Virus record (IMG/VR): IMGVR_UViG_2802429227_000005
Location: 1-16,099 of that record
Strand: one strand, 5' to 3'
Length of the DNA: 16,099 bases
From: a virus
Taxonomy: Duplodnaviria > Heunggongvirae > Uroviricota > Caudoviricetes
Under the pieces are notes generated by a model. It did no database searches. It had not been told where the DNA came from and saw nothing but the letters and a program-made list of their open reading frames with translations. The stretch's first letter is position 1. Each line of letters starts with the position of its first letter. The translations under genes were made by a program, and so were the position numbers. Below, in pieces: positions 1 through 10,096 of this stretch.

Positions 1-192
1 TCAGGAGCATTTCTGATTAACGCCACCGTTAAGAATCCACCCTTCAACAGCTTCACGAAGGTATGATTTGGGGTGGGTTCTGACTGGCTTCGGAAATCCG
101 TGCCGTTTGGTATAGTTCCAGATTGTCTGACGTGATGAAACACCGAGCTTGTTCATCACTTCTTTCTCAGGAATCAGGCTGGTATCGGTCAT
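1..192 (-). CDS. xis: Excisionase-like / AlpA-family small HTH DNA-binding protein (63 aa)
   Basis: Complete ORF in the six-frame track; small basic protein with an HTH-like core (LGVSSRQTIWNYTKRHGFPKP) typical of AlpA/Xis-type excisionases; sits at the left edge where an int-xis module is expected in a lambdoid prophage. Confidence 0.5.
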   Translation of the reverse strand: MTDTSLIPEKEVMNKLGVSSRQTIWNYTKRHGFPKPVRTHPKSYLREAVEGWILNGGVNQKCS

Positions 193-204
193 CTTAATTC
201 TCCA

Positions 205-232
205 GGCAAAAATAAACCGCCATATAGCGGCT
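205..232 (-). terminator. Rho-independent terminator candidate (short GC stem CCGC/GCGG followed by TTTATTTTT on the minus strand)
   Basis: Plus strand reads aaaaataaaccgccatatagcggc; on the minus strand this is a hairpin followed by a U-tract, downstream of the 293..508 ORF. The stem is short. Confidence 0.45.
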
Positions 233-292
233 CTATCAGATATGAACAGGCCTCATCGAGTGTGAGGCAGTGTGATTTCTTTATTTCCACTC

Positions 293-508
293 TTAATGTT
301 TGTCAGTGAATGGTTTCTCCATCTCCATTAATGCCTTATTCATCTCATTTCGTAACTCTATAGCCATCCTGACGGCTTCAACTTGTGCAGGATGTCGGTT
401 AATTGCTGGAGAATATCGTCGGGAGCGAAGGATTGAGAAAACAAAGATAATGCAAGCAACTATCTGAATTGCATTGCATGTTATTGATACAATGTTAATT
501 GCAGCCAT
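293..508 (-). CDS. Hypothetical small protein (71 aa), hydrophobic N-terminus, possible membrane protein
   Basis: ORF in the six-frame track; N-terminal hydrophobic stretch (IVSITCNAIQIVACIIFVFSIL); flanked by terminators on both sides. Confidence 0.4.
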   Translation of the reverse strand: MAAINIVSITCNAIQIVACIIFVFSILRSRRYSPAINRHPAQVEAVRMAIELRNEMNKALMEMEKPFTDKH

Positions 509-516
509 CTACTACC

Positions 517-540
517 CCCAAAAAAACCGCCATCAGGCGG
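517..540 (-). terminator. Rho-independent terminator (stem CCGCC/GGCGG, loop TGAT, then T7 on the minus strand)
   Basis: Plus strand aaaaaaaccgccatcaggcgg; perfect 5-bp GC stem plus U-tract on the minus strand; the stop codon of the 533..700 ORF lies in the loop. Confidence 0.6.
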
Positions 541-700
541 CTTGGTGTTCTTTCAGTTCTTCAATTCGAATATTGGTTACTTCTGCATGTGCTATCTGCG
601 CCCATATCATCCAGTGGTTATAGCAGTCATTGATATCCTCTGCTTCGATAACTCTGTCGAATGGCTCTCCATTCCATTCACCTGTGACTCGAAAGTGCAT
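533..700 (-). CDS. Hypothetical small protein (55 aa; below the ORF-track size cutoff)
   Basis: Manual translation of the minus strand: MHFRVTGEWNGEPFDRVIEAEDINDCYNHWMIWAQIAHAEVTNIRIEELKEHQAA; GGAG Shine-Dalgarno about 8 nt upstream of the ATG; ends inside a terminator hairpin. Confidence 0.4.
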   Translation of the reverse strand: MHFRVTGEWNGEPFDRVIEAEDINDCYNHWMIWAQIAHAEVTNIRIEELKEHQAA

Positions 701-740
701 TTATCATCTCCATAAAACAAAACCCGCCGTAGCGAGTTCA

Positions 741-768
741 GATAAAAGAAATCCCCGCGAGTGCGAGG
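741..768 (-). terminator. Rho-independent terminator candidate downstream of the 789..1088 ORF
   Basis: Minus strand reads CCTCGC-ACTC-GCGGGG (6-bp stem with one G-U pair) followed by ATTTCTTTTATC. Confidence 0.45.
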
Positions 769-788
769 ATAGTTACTTGTTCATATTA

Positions 789-1088
789 TTAATCGTCAAT
801 GTATTTTGAGCATTGTGGGCAATCATCAATCCCACAATACGATTCATATGCATCCTTTATTGCGTCGCGGGCTTCAGTAAGAGTATTGAATAAGTTGCAG
901 CTATTATCTTTTTGATATAGGTAAGTTCCTAATTTATAAGCAGAAGAAGCATCATTTCCGCTGTCTAAAATTACATCGTTATGGATTCTGCACCTTGCAA
1001 GAACTCCTGATCCCATAAGGGTCTGCATAGCCCATTGCTCTTGATCTTCACACAAATCATGAATGCTCATTTCAACACCTCTCTTCAC
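789..1088 (-). CDS. Hypothetical protein (99 aa), Cys-rich C-terminus (CGIDDCPQC)
   Basis: ORF in the six-frame track; preceded (1089..1184) by a markedly AT-rich intergenic stretch and followed by a terminator, i.e. it looks like an independent moron-like unit. Confidence 0.5.
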   Translation of the reverse strand: MKRGVEMSIHDLCEDQEQWAMQTLMGSGVLARCRIHNDVILDSGNDASSAYKLGTYLYQKDNSCNLFNTLTEARDAIKDAYESYCGIDDCPQCSKYIDD

Positions 1089-1184
1089 GTTTCACACACG
1101 TTAAGATTAACAGTGTTTTTACATGCTTTGGAAGATTTATTTTATAAAAACTCTTTTAATACAAATAGATATAATAGTTCACTA

Positions 1185-2009
1185 TTATAGCTCCTTTAAT
1201 CGAGGCGGTTCTGGTAGTGGCATCCAGTGTGACGGCTCACATACCCCCTCAACACCATTCATGTAAAAGAATTGAAATAACCCTTTACCTTTGTGAAACC
1301 CTACCATCTGCTCTTTTGTGTCTGAGCAATAAACCAAAACATCTTCTTCGTTCGGCATTCGCTCACTACAGCTTATCCAACCATCCGGAGTTACCGGATA
1401 GTTGCCATTCACAAGGTCAGATCGAACATATAGCGTGTCATCATGGTGCTGATTGTGGCTGCACCACGTTAATTCGCTTAACTCGCCATCTTCTGGCCAT
1501 ACTCCAGCCGTTTGCAGCCAGATATGGGCTGGCGCATCTTGGCAAGGTGTATTAACTGGCAACTTGTAAGTTTGGCTTACAGGTTCGGCACCATGAAGCA
1601 TGGCGTCGCTCCGCTCTATGCCATCCAGCGCGATTCGCAGTGCATGAATTGTGGTAGAGCTATCGTTTGGGGCTATTCCATATCGCTCGAATACAGCTAA
1701 ATGGTTGCGCATAATCTCAGGCGTAAGCTCTTTGTAAGCATAAGCAAGAGGCTCTGATGCATTATCCTGCACAACCGACGCAGGCGCGGCAGCATAAACA
1801 GGAATAACGTCCGCTTGCTCTTTATTGCTTTCATCCGTTAAAGCCCAGAATAATTTTCCAGCCGGATGTTTGAAAATATAAGCAACTGGTTCTGCTTCCA
1901 GCGATGCCAGTGCAATTCGTGCCAGTTCCATTTGTTCGCCACGGGTAAGCCCGTTTTCAAGCGGATTTTTAATGAACAATTCAATACGTTCTTTGGTAAT
2001 AGAATTCAT
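1185..2009 (-). CDS. Phage protein with a DUF551-like C-terminal domain (274 aa)
   Basis: C-terminal motif ...CEPSHWMPLPEPP matches the W-x-PLPEPP signature I recall for DUF551 prophage proteins; last gene of a translationally coupled leftward operon. Confidence 0.6.
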   Translation of the reverse strand: MNSITKERIELFIKNPLENGLTRGEQMELARIALASLEAEPVAYIFKHPAGKLFWALTDESNKEQADVIPVYAAAPASVVQDNASEPLAYAYKELTPEIMRNHLAVFERYGIAPNDSSTTIHALRIALDGIERSDAMLHGAEPVSQTYKLPVNTPCQDAPAHIWLQTAGVWPEDGELSELTWCSHNQHHDDTLYVRSDLVNGNYPVTPDGWISCSERMPNEEDVLVYCSDTKEQMVGFHKGKGLFQFFYMNGVEGVCEPSHWMPLPEPPRLKEL

Positions 2010-2010
2010 G

Positions 2011-2202
2011 CTATTTCACCTTAATCTCAACATTTCGCAGCTTTAGCTCTACTGGCAGGTCTGACTTTCCTGTTAATGCTAATGCGAGATTTTCTGGGGT
2101 AATGAGAGCAGTTATTGCTTTCCCCATTGCCAGACGAATAATTATTCGTATTTCGCGATCGTCACATGCTCCTGGTCGAACGATTGATATTTGTCCGTCC
2201 AT
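2011..2202 (-). CDS. Hypothetical small protein (63 aa)
   Basis: ORF in the six-frame track; its start is 1 nt from the upstream gene's end and its end 1 nt from the next gene's start, suggesting coupling. Confidence 0.45.
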   Translation of the reverse strand: MDGQISIVRPGACDDREIRIIIRLAMGKAITALITPENLALALTGKSDLPVELKLRNVEIKVK

Positions 2203-2203
2203 C

Positions 2204-2953
2204 TCACTCTCCTTTGATGCGAATGCCAGCGGCGCGGATTGCAGCGATGACCTCAGAAACTTTGTATGCCATTAGCGTTTGGTAATCCTCGTGAAAATCT
2301 GTTCGATGAAGCATGCTGCTACGTTCTGGGAGCGATATTTCCCGAGCATCCAGTTCCTTAACGCGTTCCTCCAGTTCGTAGACCCTGCATTGTTCTCTAT
2401 CATCAATCAGATATAACCCAAGACATTCGCTTTCTACCCAACCGCCAAAATCATGATCGTAACGCTCACATGAAAACTCACCGTCACCGTCCTTTGTTGG
2501 AATGGTGTAACTATCTAATGGGCCACCATATGTCGGCACATTTCCCAATGTTGGATGCTCAATCCACATGAAAAATGCACGTCCGGTTATTGGGCAAATA
2601 TCTGGCCGCCATTGGTTACGAACAGCCTTGGTTTCGGATAATTCTTCAGCGTGTTGTTTTACTTCCTCAAGCTCAACTCTCAGCTTCCCTACCGTTAGCG
2701 CAATATCCTCGTTCTCCTGATCGCGGCGTTTTATGTATTGCTGGTTTCTTTCCCGTTCATCCAGCAGCGCCAGCACGGTTTCTGGCCCTGCCAGAAGCTT
2801 GAAGGCGTTGAGCGCATCAATATCCACACCGTAATCTTTAAGTTCCTGTTCACTTAACAAATCATCATCAACTGGCAACATTAACAGGCGTTCCATTGCT
2901 GGAATTGCACGTTCCGCCGCCTCACGCAGTGCCTGGTAATTAATTTCGCTCAC
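2204..2953 (-). CDS. Hypothetical early-left (ea-region) protein, 249 aa, acidic coiled-coil-like N-terminus
   Basis: Long ORF with stop/start overlap to neighbours (2950..2953); position matches the ea/b2-type region of lambdoid phages; no family recognised with certainty. Confidence 0.55.
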   Translation of the reverse strand: MSEINYQALREAAERAIPAMERLLMLPVDDDLLSEQELKDYGVDIDALNAFKLLAGPETVLALLDERERNQQYIKRRDQENEDIALTVGKLRVELEEVKQHAEELSETKAVRNQWRPDICPITGRAFFMWIEHPTLGNVPTYGGPLDSYTIPTKDGDGEFSCERYDHDFGGWVESECLGLYLIDDREQCRVYELEERVKELDAREISLPERSSMLHRTDFHEDYQTLMAYKVSEVIAAIRAAGIRIKGE

Positions 2954-3450
2954 TGGTTGCCTCCTTTGCGAAGCTGGTCGGCGAACAAACGTACACCAGA
3001 CGCTTCACTGCGTAGAAACTTAACGGCATAATCAAAACCACCTCGTTCTGCGTCGTCTGCTGCGTTGTCGAGGTTATCTGCGTACATCTCTACCCCCTGC
3101 GCCCGTACTTCAGCCAGGAAAGCATCGGTGGCTGGGGTGTCTGATTGCAGAGACTTTGCGCGATAGTCATTCCACCCTCTTGCATACATGGGATTAACTT
3201 GCACTCCATCTTTTACGCAATATGCCTGCCCTCCACGGTTGATAACCTCAATTTCGCCCATAGCGCCAGACTTCAGCCCCGCATTCTCCGCCGCCAGCTC
3301 CGCGCACTTGGCCTCCGCTTCAGCAAATTTACGCACCAGATATTCAGCGTTTGTTTCGTTAACCTTTAGATCTCGTGGGATGCATTTACCTTTCAGAAAA
3401 CCATCCATCTCAATTAGTGACATTTGTTTCATTTCTTGCCACTCCGCCAC
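2950..3450 (-). CDS. Hypothetical early-left protein (166 aa from the GTG at 3450, or 160 aa from the ATG at 3432)
   Basis: ORF in the six-frame track; the start is ambiguous between GTG 3450 and an in-frame ATG at 3432 with GGAG upstream; overlaps the stop of the 3429..3593 small ORF. Confidence 0.5.
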
Positions 3451-3593
3451 ATCGCATTCAGATATTTGTTTTGATTCACTGAAGGAAAAGAATTTCTCTT
3501 AAGCAATTCCTCTCTCGATGGCATTGGCTTTACGCGTTGGCGAATAATCATTTCTGCCGGAAGAATGCCGGGATTGTATGCAAGTCCTCTCAT
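3429..3593 (-). CDS. Hypothetical small protein (54 aa; below the ORF-track cutoff)
   Basis: Manual translation: [54 protein letters not shown]; GAGGA Shine-Dalgarno 7 nt upstream of the ATG; fills the gap between flanking genes. Confidence 0.3.
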
Positions 3594-3609
3594 GGTAAAT
3601 TCCTCTTTG

Positions 3610-3924
3610 TTAATTTATTCGTATGCCTGCTCTTTCTTCATCGAGTTTTTTTAGCTTGTATCGCATAGCTCTTACTGAATAAATTGAGCGGCAGGTTGCA
3701 ATTGCTATTTCTTCTGCGGAGAACTTACCGAAAAGTGATACTTCGGCTCTTGTCCAGCGTCTTCCACGAAGTCGGCTAACAATGTCAGCGCCAATCCTTG
3801 TTGCTTTCGCCATTACTGCTTTTTCAGTCCTTCCCAGTTTTTCAGCGATAACTTCAACTGGCATTGTTGTCGCTACTTCGCGCAAGAAATCGACTTCCCA
3901 TTTCTCCCATGGAGTCTTTTTCAT
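3610..3924 (-). CDS. Hypothetical protein (104 aa) with two tandem W-x3-E...L repeats, possibly HTH/Myb-like DNA binding
   Basis: Internal repeat visible in the translation ([32 protein letters not shown] and [31 protein letters not shown]); immediately downstream of the Gp157-like gene. Confidence 0.5.
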
Positions 3925-3935
3925 AGGCGATACCG

Positions 3936-4424
3936 TTATTTGATAAGAAGTGAAGGTTTCCCAACTTTGAGTTGAGCGCCGGGGATATTTATTCCTGCTT
4001 TTAGTTGGTGTTTGATTGCCAGTTTGTCGGCTTTTATTGTTGTTTCAAACTCAACGTATTCTGGAGGAAGGGCGCTTGAGTCGATGATTTCTACAATTTC
4101 TGACGGTTTGCGGATTGTTACCTGGTGAATACCTGCTCGAATATTTTTCTTGCCAAACATTTCAAGCGATGACGCTATATATGATTTGATGCTGTCAATC
4201 TTATTTTGAATTACTGCAGCTCGCTCATTCAGTGACTTTGCCTCTTCCTTGAGGCGTTCGGCATAACCAGATTCATTTTTAATGACGGAAAGAAGTTGCT
4301 CTATTTTATCGGTAAATTCTCCTTCCATGCCTTCTATTGTGTCAGCAATCATCTCTGGTTCTAAATCTGAATCCATCAATTTTGCGTATTCATTGGCAAT
4401 TTCATACAGTTTGCTCACTGGCAA
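3936..4424 (-). CDS. Siphovirus Gp157-like protein (162 aa), recombination-associated partner often found next to RecT/Erf
   Basis: Coiled-coil N-terminus (LYEIANEYAKLMDSDLEPEMIADTIEGMEGEFTDKIEQL...) resembles the Gp157 family as I recall it; sits directly downstream of recT, overlapping its end. Confidence 0.5.
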   Translation of the reverse strand: MPVSKLYEIANEYAKLMDSDLEPEMIADTIEGMEGEFTDKIEQLLSVIKNESGYAERLKEEAKSLNERAAVIQNKIDSIKSYIASSLEMFGKKNIRAGIHQVTIRKPSEIVEIIDSSALPPEYVEFETTIKADKLAIKHQLKAGINIPGAQLKVGKPSLLIK

Positions 4425-5304
4425 CCTCCAGTTTCGCTTTGCATTCTATGTAAATGGCTTGTACGTTCTGCTGCAATTTCATTCCAGATGTCAGGCGATA
4501 TGCTTCTGCAAAATATCGCTTCAAATCATCCATGTTTTCTGCCTGAGCCATTTCATCACAAAGAAGTTGTGCTTTATCCATTATTTCCTGCTGGCGTTTC
4601 CGTTCATCTTCGCGGATATCTTCCTCTGATTTGTGCGGCATAACTGGTTCCTGATGCATACCTTCATCTTCGTTAAGCAGGTGAATGGCATTATCCAGTC
4701 GCTGGGCTTTAGGCCAGTATTTGCTGGCGCGTTTAACTATTGTTTTACGCGCCATCTCTTCCCAGAATGTTTTCCACGGTCCATTCTTTGCCTTGCTCGT
4801 TGCTTCCACAGCTTTAATTTCTGCCAGACTCATTTCTTCAGTCAGGTAGTCACCATCTGCTGTTTTAACCGTGCAATAACCACCAACAATAGAGCCTCGC
4901 TCACCAAATGCGTTGTATTTGTGGGTTGGTGCTGAATCAAGGCCATTTGATTCATAGGTGTCGTTTGAGTACACCAGTTTGCATTGCCCCCACTTAATTG
5001 ATCCTGTCGACTGTGCAAGGTGAAGTAATCCCATATAGCTGATATCAAGGCACACCATGCCGTCGCGCGGAACCAGATAAGCAAGTTTGCTGGCTGGGTT
5101 TAAGGTGATGCCGATCGCCGCAACATTGATGATGGCGTTCTGTGCGCTGGTTGGATTTGCCAGTGCCGTTTTAGCCAGGTAATCATTTTTCTGGAAATAC
5201 TGAATTGCAAACTGGCTTTCCTTAGCCCATGTCACCGTCTGTTCAGTCAATGCTCCGCAGAATAACTGCTCTTGCTGTTTAACGAATTCAACGATATTGC
5301 TCAT
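4402..5304 (-). CDS. recT: RecT-family single-strand annealing protein (300 aa)
   Basis: Motif NGPWKTFWEEMARKTIVKRASKYWP matches the conserved RecT core (E. coli RecT NGPWVTHWEEMAKKTAIRRLFKYLP); in the bet position of the early-left operon. Confidence 0.85.
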   Translation of the reverse strand: MSNIVEFVKQQEQLFCGALTEQTVTWAKESQFAIQYFQKNDYLAKTALANPTSAQNAIINVAAIGITLNPASKLAYLVPRDGMVCLDISYMGLLHLAQSTGSIKWGQCKLVYSNDTYESNGLDSAPTHKYNAFGERGSIVGGYCTVKTADGDYLTEEMSLAEIKAVEATSKAKNGPWKTFWEEMARKTIVKRASKYWPKAQRLDNAIHLLNEDEGMHQEPVMPHKSEEDIREDERKRQQEIMDKAQLLCDEMAQAENMDDLKRYFAEAYRLTSGMKLQQNVQAIYIECKAKLEVASEQTV

Positions 5305-5612
5305 GCTGCTTCTCCAAAAATGTGTCTGCGTTTGAATATTGCGAAGGCATATTCAGCCTTAACTCTTTCGGTTATTGCATCCCAGAACCATTCAGCGGCT
5401 TTTTCCTGATAGTTACAGTCATCATCTTCCAGCCAGTCGATAGCGTCCTTAGTGTGTTCATCTGGTTTATATGAGCGAAGCATTTCGCTTATTGGGTCGC
5501 AACGTTTGCAGAGGCGATCAACTTCACTGTTGATTCGTTCGTAATCTTCATCAGTAAAACTTGCGATTATTTGCGATATTTCACGCTTATCATTCAGAGT
5601 CAGAATCATCAT
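5301..5612 (-). CDS. Hypothetical acidic protein (103 aa) in the gam/arf position upstream of recT
   Basis: ORF with an AGGAG Shine-Dalgarno; ATGA stop/start overlap with recT; no resemblance to lambda Gam that I can see. Confidence 0.5.
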   Translation of the reverse strand: MMILTLNDKREISQIIASFTDEDYERINSEVDRLCKRCDPISEMLRSYKPDEHTKDAIDWLEDDDCNYQEKAAEWFWDAITERVKAEYAFAIFKRRHIFGEAA

Positions 5613-5693
5613 CTTTCTCCTGTTCTTTGTGCTGATTGAGCATTTTGTTCATCTGACGAATGAATTCTTCGTCTGACCAGTTATCTGTAAAAC

Positions 5694-5846
5694 TCATTTC
5701 CTGCGATACCACGGAAGGTTGATAGCTGATTTCATCGCTTTATTTGCTTCAAGCCACATTTTGGAATCACCAATAAATCTGGCTATTACTGCTTTGTTCT
5801 GTGCAGCACGAAGCATCTGGTGATTAATGGCTATTTCATTGCGCAT
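5694..5846 (-). CDS. Small hypothetical protein (50 aa) in the kil position
   Basis: Manual translation: MRNEIAINHQMLRAAQNKAVIARFIGDSKMWLEANKAMKSAINLPWYRRK; start overlaps the 3' end of the CIII-like gene; between cIII-like and the recombination genes as kil is in lambda. Confidence 0.3.
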   Translation of the reverse strand: MRNEIAINHQMLRAAQNKAVIARFIGDSKMWLEANKAMKSAINLPWYRRK

Positions 5847-5965
5847 AACGCCTCCAGTTGTTTCTTTGCTGCTCTGATTAATTGTTTAACTCGGCGTGAT
5901 AATTCAGATTCGTGCGGGTAGAAAGCGGACATGACGCCGCTACCCGCGAGCTGAAAGTGCATCAT
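5831..5965 (-). CDS. cIII: CIII-like protein (44 aa; putative FtsH inhibitor that would stabilise CII)
   Basis: Translation MMHFQLAGSGVMSAFYPHESELSRRVKQLIRAAKKQLEALCAMK aligns in pattern with lambda CIII (...AGWPVAGCPSESLLERITRKLRDGWKRL...); GGAG 6 nt upstream of the ATG-ATG. The ORF-track entry 5831..6070 has a longer, probably spurious N-terminal extension. Confidence 0.5.
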   Translation of the reverse strand: MMHFQLAGSGVMSAFYPHESELSRRVKQLIRAAKKQLEALCAMK

Positions 5966-6025
5966 GGGTAACTCCTTATATTTGATTGCATAACGAAAAC
6001 GCCTCGAGTGAAGCGTTATTGGTAT

Positions 6026-6055
6026 GCATATAAAAAGGCCCTCACATTGGAGGGC
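6026..6055 (-). terminator. Rho-independent terminator candidate in the PL operon (between ral and cIII-like)
   Basis: Minus strand GCCCTC-CAATGT-GAGGGC (6-bp stem) followed by CTTTTTATAT. Confidence 0.5.
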
Positions 6056-6191
6056 AAAGAAGATTTCCAATAATCAGAACAAGTCGGCTCCTGTTTAGTT
6101 ACGAGCGACATTGCTCCGTGTATTCACTCGTTGGAATGAATACACAGTGCAGTGTTTATTCTGTTGTTTATGCCAAAAATAAAGGCCACCA

Positions 6192-6392
6192 TCAGGCAGC
6201 CTTGTTATTCTGTTTACCAAGTTCTCTGGCAATCATTGCCGTAGTTCGTATTGCCCATTTATCGACATATTTCCCATCCTCCATTACAGGAAACATTTCT
6301 TCAGGCTTAACCATGCATTCCGATTGCAGCTTGCATCAATTGCATCGCTTGAATTGTCCACACCATTGATTTTTATCAATAGTCGTAGTCAT
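6192..6392 (-). pseudogene. ral: ral-like restriction-alleviation gene interrupted by an in-frame TGA at codon 19 (6336..6338)
   Basis: Minus-strand frame reads MTTTIDKNQWCGQFKRCN-TGA-CKLQSECMVKPEEMFPVMEDGKYVDKWAIRTTAMIARELGKQNNKAA: 66 codons in one frame with a single internal stop. The family assignment is from memory of lambda Ral. Confidence 0.5.
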
Positions 6393-6462
6393 ACGGATAG
6401 TCCTGGTATTGTTCCATCACATCCTGAGGATGCTCTTCGAACTCTTCAAATTCTTCTTCCAT
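6376..6462 (-). CDS. Very small acidic ORF (28 aa), orf28-like, overlapping the ral start
   Basis: Manual translation MEEEFEEFEEHPQDVMEQYQDYPYDYDY; AAGGTGA Shine-Dalgarno 5 nt upstream; its stop overlaps the ral ATG (6390..6392); position matches the small ORF between sieB/N and ral in lambda. Confidence 0.4.
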   Translation of the reverse strand: MEEEFEEFEEHPQDVMEQYQDYPYDYDY

Positions 6463-6608
6463 ATATCACCTTAAATAGTGGATTGCGGTAGTAAAGATTG
6501 TGCCTGTCTTTTAACCACATCAGGCTCGGTGGTTCTCGTGTACCCCTACAGCGAGAAATCGGATAAACTCTATTCACCCCCTACAGAGAGAATGATGGAG
6601 ATTCACCG

Positions 6609-7148
6609 ATGAGTAACTGGTGGCAGGAACTATTACGTTTCTTCCTGCGTGGTCTTACGCTACAACAGTTAATTCATATGCTTATTATTTTAATTGCCTT
6701 GATAATAATCACCCCTGCATCAATTAAAGAGTGGGTAGATATAAGGAACCCAGAAATACTTCCAGATCACTGGATGTATTACGCAATGCTTTTGTGTATC
6801 AGTTATGTTCTGAACAGGGTGATGGAGTTTATATTTCTGGCATCTTCAGACAGATATAAAAAATATCTCAGTAAGAGAGATGAGGCTAAAGTAATTGTGG
6901 AGACTGAGCGCCTGTTCAATTCTCTGAGTATTCAGGAAAAAGAGGTTTTAGCATTTGCTGTTATGGCAAATAACAAAATCGTACTTAAGCACGGCGATCC
7001 GGTCGCTTTATCTCTTATGAGAAAAGGCCTTCTCCATCGCTCAGGTGTGACTTACAGCGCGTCAGGTAAAGAGAAATTTGTTATACCTGACGTCTGGTTC
7101 CATGAGTGTTATATGCGCTTTGCTGGTAAAGCTGATGAGCTAATTTAG
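6609..7148 (+). CDS. sieB: Superinfection-exclusion protein B-like membrane protein (179 aa)
   Basis: N-terminal transmembrane segment (LIHMLIILIALIIITPA); rightward gene embedded in the leftward PL operon and ending 21 bp from the 3' end of N, as sieB does in lambda. Assignment is positional and topological, not by sequence identity. Confidence 0.45.
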   Translation: MSNWWQELLRFFLRGLTLQQLIHMLIILIALIIITPASIKEWVDIRNPEILPDHWMYYAMLLCISYVLNRVMEFIFLASSDRYKKYLSKRDEAKVIVETERLFNSLSIQEKEVLAFAVMANNKIVLKHGDPVALSLMRKGLLHRSGVTYSASGKEKFVIPDVWFHECYMRFAGKADELI

Positions 7149-7169
7149 TTCCTCGACGGCGGGGGATCG

Positions 7170-7442
7170 TCACCTCGCTGTCAGTTGTTTTGATTTCCGG
7201 TAGCCTGCCGCGTAAATGGCTACGTTTGGCAGGCAAATACTTCCACTGCATTCATCTGCCTTCTTGCAGCAAAGGCTTCCTAGTGATGCTGCTTTGTCTG
7301 CTCTGACGCAACCAGAGAGCTTTAGCGCAATTTTTCGCGCCAGTGCTTCATTACTGCGTCGCTCGGCAATAAGTTCTGCTCTGCGAGCTTTGTAGCGGCT
7401 TTTTGCCGTACCTTTGGATTCTTTCCAGACAATGGTTACCAT
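7170..7442 (-). CDS. N: N-like transcription antiterminator with an arginine-rich motif, phage-21 type (90 aa from the ATG at 7442)
   Basis: Arg-rich N-terminal segment GTAKSRYKARRAELIAERR matches the phi21 N RNA-binding peptide as I recall it; C-terminus YAAGYRKSKQLTAR resembles P22 gp24; GGAGA Shine-Dalgarno before the ATG at 7442; a nut site lies upstream. Confidence 0.7.
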   Translation of the reverse strand: MVTIVWKESKGTAKSRYKARRAELIAERRSNEALARKIALKLSGCVRADKAASLGSLCCKKADECSGSICLPNVAIYAAGYRKSKQLTAR

Positions 7443-7553
7443 GATGGTCTCCTTTAAGTGGCTTTGGCGCATGACGCGTCGAGGTGCTTATCTTCTCGAT
7501 CGCTGTCTTGCAGCTGCAATTCGCGCCATCCCCAAAACCACTCAAGTTCTGGT

Positions 7554-7593
7554 CTCAACGGTTAGGTTGAGAGTCCGTCGATGTTAAAGAGCC
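7554..7593 (-). promoter_or_regulatory. nutL site: boxA (GGCTCTTTAA) followed by a boxB hairpin (UCUCAAC-CUAACC-GUUGAGA)
   Basis: Minus strand reads GGCTCTTTAACATCGACGGACTCTCAACCTAACCGTTGAGA between PL and N; the boxB loop CUAACC matches the one in nutR. Confidence 0.6.
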
Positions 7594-7638
7594 TGCCAAT
7601 CTGTTCCGTTTGGCTTCCAGCGTCCTGCTGATGGCTTA

Positions 7639-7692
7639 AATTTAAGACTTCTTAATTTATTGGTCAAGTGCATTTTTGAAGAAAACTTAATT
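7639..7692 (-). promoter_or_regulatory. PL promoter (-35 TTGACC at 7662..7667, -10 TAAATT at 7639..7644, minus strand) with two OL operators of P22 type
   Basis: Operator-like TTAAG-N4-CTTAA palindromes at 7642..7655 and TGAAG-N4-CTTAA at 7677..7690, same pattern as the OR sites; 17-bp promoter spacer. Confidence 0.5.
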
Positions 7693-7729
7693 TTATGGAC
7701 GTTAATTTAGTTTGTCTTTGATTTTTAAC

Positions 7730-7756
7730 GGGAAATAAAAAAGGGGCGAAAGCCCC
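7730..7756 (-). terminator. Rho-independent terminator directly after the c2 stop codon (GGGGC-GAAA-GCCCC then T-run)
   Basis: Minus strand GGGGCTTTCGCCCC followed by TTTTTTATTTCC; the stem starts about 1 nt after the c2 stop. Confidence 0.7.
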
Positions 7757-8407
7757 TTAAGGAAGGTTTGCTAGCTTGGCATCAACGACAACGCCAATGA
7801 TTTTACAGTTCCCATTGATTTCAATCATTGGGTATTGTGGATTGAGTGGTTTCAGGAATTTTCTACCGGCATCAATAACTAACTTTTTGAATGTCGCCTC
7901 GTTTTCTCCTTCAAGTTTGGCGACTACCAGCTTTCCATTACGTGGTTCGACTTCTGGGTCGACGAGAATAATCATCCCCTCAGGAATACTCAGTCCTGCC
8001 GGGGCAGTCATTGAATCGCCTTTAACGTCGAGCCAAAAAGAGTCTTCAGAACAATCTACCGTTGTGTCGTACCAGTTATCTATTGCACGCCTATGATATG
8101 GCTCTACAGCTTCCATCCAACATCCTGCGCTTACCCAACTAATTAGAGGATACGAACCTCTTGGATCATGCCTGCTGTGATAGGCAATGTTTGAAAGACT
8201 ATCCTCTCCTTTCAACAGGTAATCAGGGGAGCACTGCAAAGCCTTGGCTAAGGCCAATAGGTTTTCGCCATTGGGCTCAGTTTCAGATCGCTCCCACTGG
8301 GAAATAGCAACATTAGACACGCCAACCATCTTGCCAAGGGCAGCCTGCCTAATCTTGAGTTCTTTTCTGCGAGCGCGAATACGCTCACCCATCAGTTGTG
8401 TATTCAT
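7757..8407 (-). CDS. c2: Phage repressor, P22 C2 type (HTH_XRE N-terminal domain plus LexA/S24-like C-terminal domain; 216 aa)
   Basis: Translation MNTQLMGERIRARRKELKIRQAALGKMVGVSNVAISQWERSETEP... matches the P22 c2 repressor almost residue for residue as I recall it; C-terminal GDSM and K (Ser-Lys dyad) self-cleavage motifs are present. Confidence 0.9.
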   Translation of the reverse strand: MNTQLMGERIRARRKELKIRQAALGKMVGVSNVAISQWERSETEPNGENLLALAKALQCSPDYLLKGEDSLSNIAYHSRHDPRGSYPLISWVSAGCWMEAVEPYHRRAIDNWYDTTVDCSEDSFWLDVKGDSMTAPAGLSIPEGMIILVDPEVEPRNGKLVVAKLEGENEATFKKLVIDAGRKFLKPLNPQYPMIEINGNCKIIGVVVDAKLANLP

Positions 8408-8473
8408 AGTTAAGACATCTTAAATAAACTTGACTTAAGATTCCTTTGGTGGATAATTTAAGTGTTCTTTAAT
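8408..8473 (+). promoter_or_regulatory. OR operator triplet with PR (-35 TTGACT at 8430..8435, -10 GATAAT at 8453..8458) and divergent PRM
   Basis: Three TTAAG-N4-CTT(A/T)(A/G) palindromes at 8410..8423, 8435..8448 and 8458..8471, spaced about 23-25 bp apart, overlapping PR; OR3 abuts the c2 start codon. Confidence 0.7.
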
Positions 8474-8487
8474 TTCGGAGCGAGTCT

Positions 8488-8673
8488 ATGTACAAAAAAG
8501 ATGTTATTGACCACTTCGGAACCCAGCGTGCTGTTGCTAAAGCACTAGGCATTAGCGATGCAGCAGTCTCTCAGTGGAAAGAAGTTATCCCAGAGAAAGA
8601 CGCCTATCGATTGGAAATCGTTACAGCTGGCGCCCTGAAGTATCAAGAAAGTGCTTACCGCCAAGCGGCATAA
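8488..8673 (+). CDS. cro: Cro repressor, P22 type (61 aa)
   Basis: Translation MYKKDVIDHFGTQRAVAKALGISDAAVSQWKEVIPEKDAYRLEIVTAGALKYQESAYRQAA matches P22 Cro as I recall it; GGAG Shine-Dalgarno; divergent from c2 across OR. Confidence 0.85.
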   Translation: MYKKDVIDHFGTQRAVAKALGISDAAVSQWKEVIPEKDAYRLEIVTAGALKYQESAYRQAA

Positions 8674-9117: not shown

Positions 9118-9279
9118 ATGACAAAACGTCGTAAGAAATACCAGGAAAAAGAAGAGATTCGACACCCTGATTCACCTGAGGGATTAGTGGTAGCCGCAGC
9201 AAATAACAGGGCGTTCGCAGAGCGCCTTGTTGGTGTTTACAGACTAGCCAAAGCAGGAGTGAAACATGGGCGTCGTTAA
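9118..9279 (+). CDS. Hypothetical small basic protein (53 aa; below the ORF-track cutoff) between c1 and the O-like gene
   Basis: Manual translation [53 protein letters not shown]; strong AGGAG Shine-Dalgarno 5 nt upstream of the ATG; overlaps the O-like start by 14 nt in another frame. Confidence 0.3.
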   Translation: MTKRRKKYQEKEEIRHPDSPEGLVVAAANNRAFAERLVGVYRLAKAGVKHGRR

Positions 9280-10096
9280 GTTAGCTGATTACAGGCCTCA
9301 ACTGGAGGTCGTGGAGCATCGCGTGGCAGAACTCGAAGATGGCTACACTCGGACTGCAAACACACTGTTAGAAGCCGCCATGCTTTCTGGACTTACTCTA
9401 CATCAGTTACTGATTGTTATGGCTGTGTGGCGCAAGACATACGGTTACAACAAAAAAATAGATTGGATCGGAAACGAACAGTTCGCTGAACTCACTGGCA
9501 TGGCACCAACCAAATGCTCTACCGCCAAAAACGAGCTTATCAGAATGGGAGTTCTCATTCAGGTGGGGCGTCAAGTTGGTATGAATACAAACATTTCCGA
9601 GTGGAAAACGAAAGTTAACGGATTCGGTAAAACATTTACCAATTCGGTAAAACAAACCTTCACCAAATCGGTAAAAAGCAATTTACCGAATCAGTCAAAC
9701 ACAAAAGACAATATACAAAAGACAATAAATACAAATACCCCCTTACCCCCTAACGGGGGCGGCGATGGGCAGGTTAAACCTGAACGTCGCAAGGCAGAAC
9801 GAATCGACTACGAATCCTTCCTGAACGCCTACAACACCGAAGTCGGTGACAGACTTCCACATGCTGTTGCGGTCAACGAGAAACGCAAACGCCGCCTGAA
9901 GAAAATCATCCCGCAACTGAAAACGCCAAACGTGGACGGTTTCAGAGCGTATGTCAGGGCGTTTGTGCATCAGGCCAAGCCGTTTTACTTCGGAGACAAC
10001 GACACGGGCTGGACGGCAGATTTTGATTACCTGCTGAGGGAAGATTCGTTAACGGGAGTGCGGGAAGGGAAGTTTGCAGACAGGGGGATTGCATGA
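9266..10096 (+). CDS. O: Replication initiator, lambda O-like N-terminal domain (P22 gene 18 type; 276 aa)
   Basis: N-terminal region aligns with lambda O ([18 protein letters not shown]...WRKTYGYNK...NISEW against VADLDDGYARLSNMLLEA...LRKTYGWNK...NISEW); iterons inside the gene. Confidence 0.8.
9622..9737. repeat. Origin of replication inside the O-like gene: ATTCGGTAAAAC iterons followed by an AT-rich stretch
   Basis: Direct repeats ATTCGGTAAAAC at 9622..9633 and 9642..9653, degenerate AATCGGTAAAAA at 9666..9677, inverted TTTACCGAAT at 9682..9691, then AT-rich 9700..9737. Confidence 0.6.

What the first reader, a model, noticed from the sequence alone, without database searches (positions are those of the whole stretch)
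205..1184. Moron-like cluster of three small genes, each with its own terminator, plus a recurring terminator cassette
Between the xis-like gene and the early-left operon are three small minus-strand ORFs (99 aa Cys-rich; 55 aa; 71 aa hydrophobic) separated by terminators, preceded by a distinctly AT-rich promoter-like stretch (1089..1184). Two of the terminators share an almost identical sequence (AAAAA-ACCGCCAT-CAGGCGGC, at 205..232 and 517..540). A degenerate third copy (6177..6203) ends the ral-like gene with the stop codon in the loop, just as at 533..535. Independent promoter-gene-terminator units are typical of lysogenic-conversion or defence morons.
Basis: seen in the sequence. Interest (0 to 1): 0.55.

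Follow-up and report, generated by a model that had tools for sequence, protein, structure and literature searches.

The report
Terminator-gated end of lambdoid early-left operon
The three small genes are the ordinary last genes of a lambda-like prophage's early-left operon (lambda ea8.5 and orf55 homologues plus one unannotated small membrane protein), and the repeated terminators mark the seams where gene modules have been swapped; there is no sign that each gene is a self-contained unit.

Summary
Three minus-strand ORFs, four strong intrinsic terminators and an AT-rich spacer lie at the stated places. The interpretation as independent promoter-gene-terminator morons for lysogenic conversion or defence is not supported.

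- **99-aa ORF:** the true start is probably M7, giving 93 aa at 789..1070. It is 100% identical to the solved Ea8.5 homologue PDB 2M7A.
- **55-aa ORF:** 93% identical to lambda Orf55.
- **Terminators:** 526-541, 720-739 and 751-770 correspond to lambda terminators t5, t4 and t3, already predicted in the literature.
- **No room for promoters:** orf55 and the 71-aa ORF start about 20 nt after a terminator stem. They can only be read by antiterminated pL transcription, and the N gene is present at 7170..7472.
- **71-aa ORF:** a real add-on. It encodes a small membrane protein found in 79 of 5426 E. coli genomes and was unannotated in every listed match. It travels with a relic of a P22-type xis gene (238-290).
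- **Two similar terminators:** this module sits between the orf55 terminator and the terminator belonging to the AlpA-type xis module.
- **Mosaic seams:** homology breakpoints in about 120 related contigs fall on these terminators and gene-end relics.

Overall this is an ordinary, mostly known architecture and of low interest.

The parts
1..192 (-). AlpA/HTH_17-type xis-like gene. It is the first gene of the int-xis module, which extends right to about 241.
   Evidence: 63 aa; weak Phage_AlpA match below the Pfam cut-off; phrog_66 excisionase. Window 1..232 is 98% identical to HK140. Annotated as an AlpA family regulatory protein in HK140, Sf101 and mEp234.
214..233 (-). Intrinsic terminator just upstream of xis (GAGCCGCTATATGGCGGTTT + ATTTTTG). 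It belongs to the AlpA-xis module, not to the 71-aa gene.
   Evidence: fold. The identical sequence follows a different gene in mEp234, and other contexts of the 71-aa module lack it.
238..290 (-). Relic of the 5' end of a P22-type (HTH_17) excisionase gene (..KKSHCLTLDEACSYL..). It contains the 250-268 inverted repeat that looks like a hairpin, and it is a shared recombination seam.
   Evidence: Translations. An intact homologue MESHSLTLDEACAFLKISRPT... lies directly after the 74-aa homologue in L131/L132. The same relic follows HK022 gp32 and mEp234 gp27. HSP starts fall at 238.
293..508 (-). 71-aa small membrane protein gene (phrog_15342): an N-terminal transmembrane helix, an RSRR stretch, then an amphipathic helix. 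It is the cargo gene in the slot between two terminators.
526..541 (-). Intrinsic terminator corresponding to lambda t5 (GCCGCCTGATGGCGG + U7). The orf55 stop codon (533..535) lies in its loop. It is a major mosaic junction.
   Evidence: Read from the sequence; not listed on the minus strand by the scan. Fold. Lambda t5 sequence in PMC4195576 Table 4. Alignment to lambda. Junction statistics.
533..700 (-). Homologue of lambda orf55 (lambdap35), 55 aa.
   Evidence: 93% identical to lambda Orf55; phrog_676; annotation notes in HK140 and HK022; Donaldson 2021, PMC8614690.
720..739 (-). Intrinsic terminator corresponding to lambda t4, about 20 nt upstream of the orf55 ATG.
   Evidence: the tandem pair folds with z = -4.0.
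751..770 (-). Intrinsic terminator corresponding to lambda t3, downstream of ea8.5.
   Evidence: Homology breakpoints fall at 747-779.
789..1070 (-). Ea8.5-family gene (93 aa; the 99-aa ORF starts at an upstream GTG).
   Evidence: PF20735 at 1.1e-15. 100% identical to PDB 2M7A residues 9-101. 41% identical to lambda Ea8.5.
1071..1184 (-). AT-rich spacer (GC 0.27) upstream of ea8.5, with only weak sigma-70-like matches. It travels with this ea8.5 allele.
   Evidence: Homology extends to 1229 in 9 loci.
1185..2009 (-). DUF551-domain protein gene, the upstream neighbour in the operon. Its 3' end (1204-1229) is another conserved seam.
6182..6203 (-). Terminator at the end of ral, with the stop codon 6192..6194 in its loop. 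This is the degenerate 'third copy'.
7170..7472 (-). N antiterminator gene. It supplies the read-through that the terminator-gated genes would need.
   Evidence: PF25694 N_peptide at 3.6e-16.

Best explanation
Positions 193..1184 are the distal ('exo-xis' or 'ea') end of the N-antiterminated early-left (pL) operon of a lambdoid prophage. They are not a set of autonomous units. In the direction of transcription the order is: DUF551 gene, AT-rich spacer, ea8.5 homologue, terminators t3 and t4, orf55, terminator t5, 71-aa membrane-protein gene, relic of a P22-type xis, terminator, AlpA-type xis.

Inferred mechanism: the terminators stop any RNA polymerase that has not been modified by N at nutL. 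In that case orf55, the 71-aa gene and xis would be made only as delayed-early products after induction or infection, and xis/int would be insulated from stray upstream transcription.

Shown here: the two similar terminators are not a mobile cassette. They are the seams of a mosaic. The segment [71-aa gene + xis relic] lies between the terminator that ends orf55 and the terminator that precedes the AlpA-xis module. In other phages the same slot is empty (lambda, HK140) or holds a different gene (HK022 gp32, mEp234 gp27).

Exchange happens at short shared sequences: the last roughly 14 codons of orf55 plus its hairpin, the xis 5' relic, and the t3/t4 hairpins.

Gene products, with no function tested here: Ea8.5 has a solved homeodomain/zinc-finger fold, lambda Orf55 has been modelled in the literature as T7 Gp2-like, and the 71-aa product is predicted to be a single-pass inner-membrane protein with a cytoplasmic helix.
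For: **Homology to lambda**
- Window 521..835 is 89% identical to lambda 29106..29420.
- Orf55 is 93% identical to lambda Orf55.
- The Ea8.5 homologue is identical to PDB 2M7A.
- The lambda t3/t4/t5 sequences published in PMC4195576 Table 4 match those at 751-770, 720-739 and 526-541.

**Operon context**
- N, SieB, cI, Kil, RecT and Ea22-like genes lie upstream on the same strand.
- There are no minus-strand terminators between 770 and 5998 except one weak site.

**No promoters**
- No site reaches 9 of 12 consensus positions on the minus strand in 1..1400.
- Only about 20 nt separate each terminator stem from the next ATG.

**Mosaic seams**
- HK140 aligns to window 1..232 and to 520..775, and the two alignments overlap at a single terminator.
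- Of about 120 IMG/VR loci with the exact t5 sequence, 115 carry orf55 sequence on one side, while the other side falls into 9 unrelated groups: lambda xis 53, TorI 37, HK022-gp32-like 20, 71-aa gene 4, AlpA 2 and four singletons.
- About 25 of these loci keep only the last roughly 14 codons of orf55, fused behind other genes.
- Breakpoints cluster at 238, 520/521, 580-584 and 747-779.

**The 71-aa ORF is a real gene**
- A 45%-identical 74-aa homologue has the same length and lies directly upstream of an intact P22-type xis and int.
- Five of 8 substitutions among close copies are synonymous.
- It matches a 71-aa PHROG family.
- AlphaFold2 predicts helices at 2-31 and 40-63.
Against: - No transcription data were available, so both terminator function and N-dependence are inferred from sequence and from lambda.
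- The AT-rich spacer has several 8-of-12 promoter-like matches, including a perfect TATAAT at 1189..1184, so N-independent expression of ea8.5 is not excluded.
- The breakpoint sample was selected for the exact t5 sequence. This forces the 520/521 boundary, though not the other boundaries.
- The 71-aa ORF was unannotated in every listed RefSeq E. coli match and has only one distant relative among 1.8 billion representatives.
- The single hairpin contexts fold only modestly better than shuffles, with z -1.3 to -2.3.
Confidence: 0.75

Rival explanations
1. One reading: each small gene is an autonomous moron with its own promoter and terminator, expressed from the repressed prophage, and provides lysogenic conversion or phage defence.
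For: - The 71-aa gene is an insertion relative to HK140 and lambda.
- The 71-aa and ea8.5 genes have lower GC (0.39 and 0.38) than their neighbours at 0.45-0.48.
- An AT-rich spacer with weak -10-like hexamers precedes ea8.5.
- A small membrane protein would suit a superinfection-exclusion role, by analogy with HK97 gp15 (PMC3594210).
Against: - There is no space or signal for a promoter between t4 and orf55 or between t5 and the 71-aa gene.
- The diverged 74-aa homologue abuts its upstream gene with a 2-nt gap, and no terminator-like site was found on its coding strand in that locus.
- There are no PADLOC hits.
- The lambda exo-xis region is described as believed to be transcribed from pL (PMC4195576).
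- Only cI, rexAB, lom and bor are listed as expressed in lambda lysogens (PMC7067206).
Confidence: 0.1
2. The hairpins act mainly on RNA that has already been read through, not as stop signals. They could serve as stabilising or processing elements, or as translation-sensitive attenuators. With the orf55 and ral stop codons inside the loops, a closely coupled ribosome would hold the hairpin open and let polymerase pass, so termination would occur only when the upstream gene is not being translated.
For: - The stop codons of orf55 (533..535) and ral (6192..6194) both lie in the hairpin loop.
- The hairpins sit immediately 5' of the next gene's Shine-Dalgarno sequence.
- That a ribosome close to a terminator lowers its efficiency is established knowledge recalled from memory, not checked here.
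Against: - All four hairpins carry canonical U-tracts.
- t3, t4 and the 214-233 hairpin do not overlap a stop codon.
- Lambda already has a dedicated read-through mechanism in N.
- This model adds to the best explanation more than it competes with it.
Confidence: 0.15
3. The 71-aa ORF is not a gene. On this view 242..520 is non-coding filler or a decayed remnant carried along with the xis relic.
For: - It is unannotated in every listed RefSeq E. coli match and in Sf101 and IME10.
- Only three 90%-identity clusters and one distant relative exist.
- The stop codon is lost or moved in some copies.
Against: - The 45%-identical homologue keeps the length, the transmembrane segment, the HPAQ motif and the position next to xis.
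- Five synonymous against 3 non-synonymous changes.
- A GGGGG Shine-Dalgarno lies 7 nt before the ATG.
- It matches a full-length PHROG family.
Confidence: 0.1

Closest known systems
Lambda exo-xis region, ea8.5 - orf55 - xis segment, with predicted terminators t3, t4 and t5 (Bloch et al. 2014, PMC4195576; Donaldson 2021, PMC8614690)
   Same: Same gene order and strand. Orf55 is 93% identical. Window 521..835 is 89% identical in DNA and includes all three terminators. The stop codon sits in the t5 loop, and a terminator lies directly upstream of xis.
   Different: The Ea8.5 allele is only 41% identical to lambda's. The upstream neighbour is a DUF551 gene, not ea22. The xis is AlpA-type, not lambda-type. 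An extra 310-bp segment (71-aa gene plus xis relic plus a second terminator) lies between orf55 and xis.
HK022 gp33 - gp32 - xis and mEp234 gp27 - xis segments
   Same: Identical slot architecture: orf55 homologue, terminator, one cargo gene, the same P22-type xis relic, terminator, xis.
   Different: The cargo is an unrelated 114-aa protein ('N15 early protein homolog') rather than the 71-aa membrane protein. HK022 has a lambda-type xis.
Phage morons (HK97 gene 15 type; Cumby et al. 2012, PMC3594210)
   Same: The 71-aa gene is extra DNA between genes that are adjacent in relatives. Its GC is somewhat lower, and a terminator follows it.
   Different: No promoter of its own was found, and a terminator sits immediately upstream instead. 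The downstream terminator belongs to the neighbouring module. Expression from the repressed prophage is not indicated.
Conserved boundary (linker) sequences as foci of homologous recombination in mosaic lambdoid genomes (model summarised in PMC3233612; original HK620 and modular-evolution papers recalled from memory)
   Same: Short conserved stretches at gene ends are flanked on both sides by unrelated sequence in different phages, and homology breakpoints pile up on them.
   Different: Here the shared stretches are identifiable as terminator hairpins and as relics of truncated genes (orf55 3' end, xis 5' end). That fits repeated exchange at leftover homology rather than dedicated linker elements.
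Lambda tL terminators overridden by N antitermination
   Same: Intrinsic terminators lie inside the pL operon, in a ral-proximal group (5998-6203) and a distal group (214-770), with N encoded upstream.
   Different: Function here is inferred only. The correspondence to the classical tL2 and tL3 names was not established. From memory, tL3 lies just downstream of exo, so it is not the xis-proximal terminator.

Membership tests
Moron (Juhala/Hendrix definition as restated by Cumby et al. 2012, PMC3594210) | Extra DNA inserted between genes that are adjacent in related phages | tested here: met
   For the 71-aa segment only: in HK140 the AlpA-xis is directly adjacent to orf55, with one terminator between them. 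orf55 and ea8.5 are also variably present.
Moron (Juhala/Hendrix definition as restated by Cumby et al. 2012, PMC3594210) | Own promoter | tested here: not met
   No sigma-70-like site reaches 9 of 12 on the minus strand in 1..1400. Only about 20 nt lie between the terminator stem and the ATG for orf55 and for the 71-aa gene. For ea8.5 alone the result is inconclusive, with 8-of-12 matches in the AT-rich spacer.
Moron (Juhala/Hendrix definition as restated by Cumby et al. 2012, PMC3594210) | Own terminator | tested here: inconclusive
   Terminators follow all three genes. However, the 214-233 terminator is part of the xis module, and t4/t3 mostly travel with orf55.
Moron (Juhala/Hendrix definition as restated by Cumby et al. 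2012, PMC3594210) | Base composition different from neighbours | tested here: inconclusive
   GC is 0.389 (71 aa) and 0.383 (ea8.5) against 0.446-0.477 in the neighbours. orf55 at 0.446 is not different.
Moron (Juhala/Hendrix definition as restated by Cumby et al. 2012, PMC3594210) | Expressed from the repressed prophage | not testable with these tools
   Needs RNA-seq or reporter data from the lysogen.
Lambda Ea8.5 family (Pfam PF20735) | Profile match above the curated cut-off over the full length | tested here: met
   58.4 bits against a cut-off of 27, covering profile positions 1-90 of 90. Identical to PDB 2M7A.
Lambda Orf55 (lambdap35; phrog_676) | Full-length sequence similarity and position immediately upstream of the pre-xis terminator | tested here: met
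   51 of 55 residues identical to lambda Orf55. phrog_676 at 1.3e-38 over positions 1-55. Same position as in lambda.
Rho-independent (intrinsic) terminator | GC-rich hairpin followed directly by a U-tract on the transcribed strand | tested here: met
   for 233..214, 739..720, 770..751 and 6203..6182. Sequence and fold for 541..526, which the scan did not list on the minus strand.
Rho-independent (intrinsic) terminator | Demonstrated 3' ends or termination activity | not testable with these tools
   Needs Term-seq or in vitro transcription.
N-antiterminated pL operon of lambdoid phages | N gene and immunity region upstream on the same strand, with uninterrupted co-oriented genes down to xis | tested here: met
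   N_peptide at 7170..7472, cI-like repressor at 7757..8407, then Kil, RecT, Ea22-like and DUF551 genes. The nutL site itself was not located.

The most novel reading that the evidence does not exclude
The interval just upstream of xis may be a recurrent, terminator-bounded cargo slot in lambdoid phages. Alternative small genes would be swapped into it by recombination at terminator hairpins and gene-end relics, and would be expressed strictly under antitermination. Occupants seen here are none, the HK022 gp32 type, and the 71-aa membrane protein. On this reading the 71-aa protein, unannotated in every listed RefSeq E. coli match, is a new delayed-early membrane effector, for example acting on division, membrane potential or exclusion of other phages. 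The stop-codon-in-loop terminators of orf55 and ral would tie read-through to translation of the upstream gene.
Probability: 0.2. Interest if true: 0.4.

Novelty: new member of a known kind. Interest (0 to 1): 0.2.

Why it matters
- **Main value is corrective.** A terminator after every small gene does not make a moron. In N- or put-dependent operons such terminators enforce timing, and they become fossil seams of module exchange.
- **Annotation.** A conserved 71-aa membrane-protein gene is present in about 1.5% of complete E. coli genomes and in phages Sf101 and IME10, yet is unannotated in every listed RefSeq match.
- **Mosaicism.** The locus shows homologous exchange at leftover gene ends (orf55 3' end, P22-type xis 5' end). 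This bears on the long-running question of how lambdoid mosaicism arises.
- None of this changes current understanding.

Tried and rejected
- **Hairpin 250-268 as a plus-strand terminator for a convergent int transcript.** Rejected: the inverted repeat is the coding sequence LTLDEA of a truncated P22-type xis.
- **The xis-proximal terminator as lambda tL3.** Not supported: from memory tL3 lies just after exo. Literature searches for tL3 and tL4 returned only synthetic-biology or unrelated papers. I use the names t3 to t5 from PMC4195576.
- **Remote homology for the 71-aa protein.** Pfam gave only a sub-threshold Reticulon hit. NCBIfam gave nothing and PADLOC nothing. The word-indexed search found 3 near-identical clusters. 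The exhaustive HMMER search found one true relative and one spurious repeat protein. Foldseek against viral models gave no match.
- **Known RNA families in 1..8600.** Only a chance miRNA hit at E = 0.35.
- **Ribosome-profiling paper on lambda (PMC3718152).** Not held in the library.
- **A mobile 'terminator cassette'.** Rejected: the exact t5 sequence is tied to orf55 sequence in 115 of about 120 loci, and the few unrelated occurrences look convergent.
Full report
**1. What is in the sequence**

Searches confirm three minus-strand ORFs: 293..508 (71 aa), 533..700 (55 aa) and 789..1088 (99 aa from a GTG). The terminator scan finds minus-strand hairpin-plus-U-tract sites at 233..214, 739..720 and 770..751, and a further group at 6203..6182, 6055..6038 and 6017..5998. 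That is 17 sites in 1..7000 against 5.9 +/- 2.2 in shuffles.

The scan did not list a minus-strand site at 541..526. That hairpin, GCCGCCUGAUGGCGG followed by seven U, is read from the sequence and appears in the minimum-energy fold. Only the tandem pair 705-790 folds clearly better than shuffles (z -4.0). The other hairpin contexts give z -1.3 to -2.3.

The stretch 1101-1200 has GC 0.21, and the spacer 1071..1184 has 0.27, against 0.463 for the window. The stop codons of the 55-aa ORF (533..535) and of ral (6192..6194) lie in the hairpin loops.

The two proximal terminators share the A-run and stem but not the loop. They are 72% identical over 25 nt. Allowing three free loop positions, the 20-nt pattern matches twice against 0.10 expected. 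The ral copy is 76% identical over 25 nt, which is no better than chance families in the same list. The shared 9-mer occurs twice against 0.13 expected, a post hoc test.

**2. Genomic context**

The window is the early-left arm of a lambdoid prophage. Pfam identifies:
- the N antiterminator (7170..7472);
- SieB (6609..7148, plus strand);
- a cI-type repressor (7757..8407);
- Kil, RecT, a Gp157-like protein and an Ea22-like protein;
- a DUF551 protein (1185..2009) and an AlpA/HTH-type xis-like gene (1..192).

Apart from sieB these are co-oriented on the minus strand. The three small genes are therefore the last genes of the pL operon before xis. They are not a cluster lying between xis and that operon.

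**3. Identity of the genes**

The 99-aa ORF is an Ea8.5-family protein (PF20735, 58 bits). From M7, which a GAGAGG Shine-Dalgarno precedes, its 93 residues are 100% identical to PDB 2M7A. That entry is cited as the Ea8.5 NMR structure with a hybrid homeodomain/zinc-finger fold in PMC8614690. It is 41% identical to lambda Ea8.5.

The 55-aa ORF is 93% identical to lambda Orf55/lambdap35. Window 521..835 is 89% identical to lambda 29106..29420. [quoted passage not shown] The paper also notes a partial orf55 near xis in phage 933W.

Bloch et al. 2014 (PMC4195576, Table 4) list predicted lambda terminators t3, t4 and t5. Their sequences match those at 751-770, 720-739 and 526-541. Two genes and three terminators of the finding are thus homologues of features already described in lambda.

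**4. The 71-aa ORF**

It matches a 71-residue PHROG of unknown function. It has no Pfam, NCBIfam or PADLOC family.

Its DNA occurs in 79 of 5426 complete E. coli genomes and in phages Sf101 and IME10. No feature is annotated over it in any of the full-length matches listed.

An exhaustive HMMER search of 1.8 billion representatives found one true relative. This is a 74-aa protein, 45% identical. It shares the hydrophobic N-terminus, a conserved HPAQ..AV..A..LR.EM motif and a KP(F/Y) near the C-terminus. Its gene lies at the same place: it is the last gene before an intact 123-aa HTH_17 excisionase-like gene and an integrase gene.

Among close copies, 5 of 8 substitutions are synonymous. AlphaFold2 predicts helix 2-31 (the hydrophobic segment, followed by RSRR) and helix 40-63, with mean pLDDT 79. 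A Foldseek search of viral models found nothing.

I conclude it is a genuine small single-pass membrane protein of unknown function.

**5. Why there are two similar terminators**

Translating 290..238 gives ..KKSHCLTLDEACSYL... This is the N-terminus of the P22-type excisionase-like protein that follows the 74-aa homologue intact (MESHSLTLDEACAFLKISRPT...). The apparent hairpin at 250-268 is that coding relic, not a terminator.

The same relic, followed by a terminator, lies between HK022 gp32 and its lambda-type xis. It also lies between mEp234 gp27 and its AlpA-type xis.

HK140 has orf55, one terminator and the AlpA-type xis. Window 1..232 and window 520..775 both align to it and overlap at that terminator.

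The window, like Sf101, therefore reads: orf55 with its terminator, then [71-aa gene + xis relic], then the terminator and ribosome-binding region that belong to the AlpA-xis module. Other copies of the 71-aa module sit next to TorI, a lambda-type xis or a third xis type, and they lack the 214-233 sequence.

**6. Terminators and gene-end relics as mosaic seams**

A scan of IMG/VR for the exact 20-mer at 522-541 returned 120 stretches. In 115 of them, orf55 sequence follows on one side.

The other side falls into nine unrelated groups: lambda xis 53, TorI 37, the HK022-gp32-type gene 20, the 71-aa gene 4, AlpA-xis 2 and four singletons.

About 25 loci retain only the last roughly 14 codons of orf55 (VTNIRIEELKEHQAA*) plus the hairpin, fused behind unrelated genes such as Eag. 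This explains the homology ends at 580-584.

Other ends cluster at 747, 754/755, 770, 775 and 779, at or just beyond t4 and t3. A further block lies at 1204-1229, the 3' end of DUF551 genes.

The 520/521 boundary is forced by how the sample was chosen. The other boundaries are not. BLAST against GenBank phages shows the same query start points of 238, 520/521 and 737.

Four loci carry the same hairpin in unrelated surroundings. So the hairpin sequence also arises independently, which weakens the case that the 214-233 and ral copies share ancestry with it.

**7. Promoters**

The scan finds no minus-strand sigma-70-like site in 1..1400 at 9 of 12. A relaxed scan gives only 8-of-12 matches in the AT-rich spacer:
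- TATAAT at 1189..1184 with a poor -35;
- TTAAAG-17-TATTAT;
- TTTGTA-15-TAAAAT.

It finds nothing usable upstream of orf55 or the 71-aa gene. Between the t4 stem and the orf55 ATG, and between the t5 stem and the 71-aa ATG, there are only about 20 nt, and these hold the U-tract and the Shine-Dalgarno sequence. Any promoter further upstream would face the terminator.

These two genes therefore cannot be promoter-gene-terminator units. Only ea8.5 could have a weak promoter of its own. The lambda spacer upstream of ea8.5 is not homologous and has GC 0.39.

**8. Mechanism (inferred)**

As in lambda, N-modified polymerase starting at pL would read through the ral-proximal and distal terminators. 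Unmodified polymerase would stop.

The distal terminators would make orf55, the slot gene and xis strictly delayed-early, and would shield xis/int from stray transcription. [quoted passage not shown]

A review of lambda expression studies lists only cI, rexAB, lom and bor as expressed in the lysogen (PMC7067206).

A possible refinement is that the stop-in-loop arrangement lets a closely coupled ribosome suppress termination. This is untested.

**9. Comparison with morons**

Cumby et al. 2012 (PMC3594210) describe morons as obvious additions with deviant GC and their own promoter and terminator, allowing expression from the repressed prophage.
- Addition: met for the 71-aa gene.
- Deviant GC: weakly met, 0.39 against about 0.46.
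- Own promoter: not met.
- Own terminator: ambiguous.
- Expression from the repressed prophage: not testable here.

The cluster works like the lambda exo-xis region, not like HK97 gene 15.

**10. Verdict**

Interest is low.

Noticed in passing
window 6192..6392 (-): The ral gene is identical to lambda Ral at every other codon but has an in-frame TGA where lambda has Gly19 (GGA). It is therefore probably a pseudogene, or is made only as a 40-aa product from M27. The same TGA variant occurs in one other, different IMG/VR phage contig (L133, 94% identical around ral).
   Followed up: partly
window 533..541 and 6192..6200 (-): Orf55 and Ral both end in ...AA-stop (KEHQAA*, QNNKAA*), with GC(C/T) GCC TGA forming the 5' arm and loop of the terminator. 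A C-terminal Ala-Ala resembles the end of the ssrA degradation tag. Whether this makes the proteins unstable was not examined.
   Followed up: no
window 5998..6055 (-): Two more terminator-like hairpins lie just downstream of the ral terminator. Together they form a three-terminator group that recalls the lambda tL2 cluster (from memory). The 79-aa ORF 5831..6070 overlaps them.
   Followed up: no
window 1204..1229: A short block at the 3' end of the DUF551 gene (encoding ..PLPEPPRLKEL*) is shared with many otherwise unrelated loci. It is another mosaic seam (HSP starts at 1204, ends at 1227-1229).
   Followed up: partly
L004 (Sf101) 2501..2848; L005 (IME10) 2501..2808; 79 E. coli genomes: The 71-aa membrane-protein gene has no annotated feature in any listed GenBank or RefSeq match. 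It is found next to four different xis/int types (AlpA, TorI at dsdC, lambda-type at ybhC, and a tRNA-Thr integrase).
   Followed up: yes
about 25 IMG/VR loci, e.g. L007, L008, L045: Only the last roughly 14 codons of orf55 plus its terminator survive, fused behind unrelated genes such as the zinc-ribbon Eag protein. This matches the 'portion of orf55' noted near xis in phage 933W by Donaldson 2021.
   Followed up: yes
window 9605..9676: Three to four tandem copies, about 20-24 nt apart, of a motif ending in (T/A)TCGGTAAAA lie inside the 276-aa ORF 9266..10096. They look like origin iterons inside a lambda O-type replication gene.
   Followed up: no
L054 and HK022/mEp234 (L002, L006): In other phages the slot between the orf55 terminator and xis holds other cargo: a 114-aa protein with no Pfam match (HK022 gp32 type, 20 of about 120 loci) or a 209-aa protein (L054).
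   Followed up: partly
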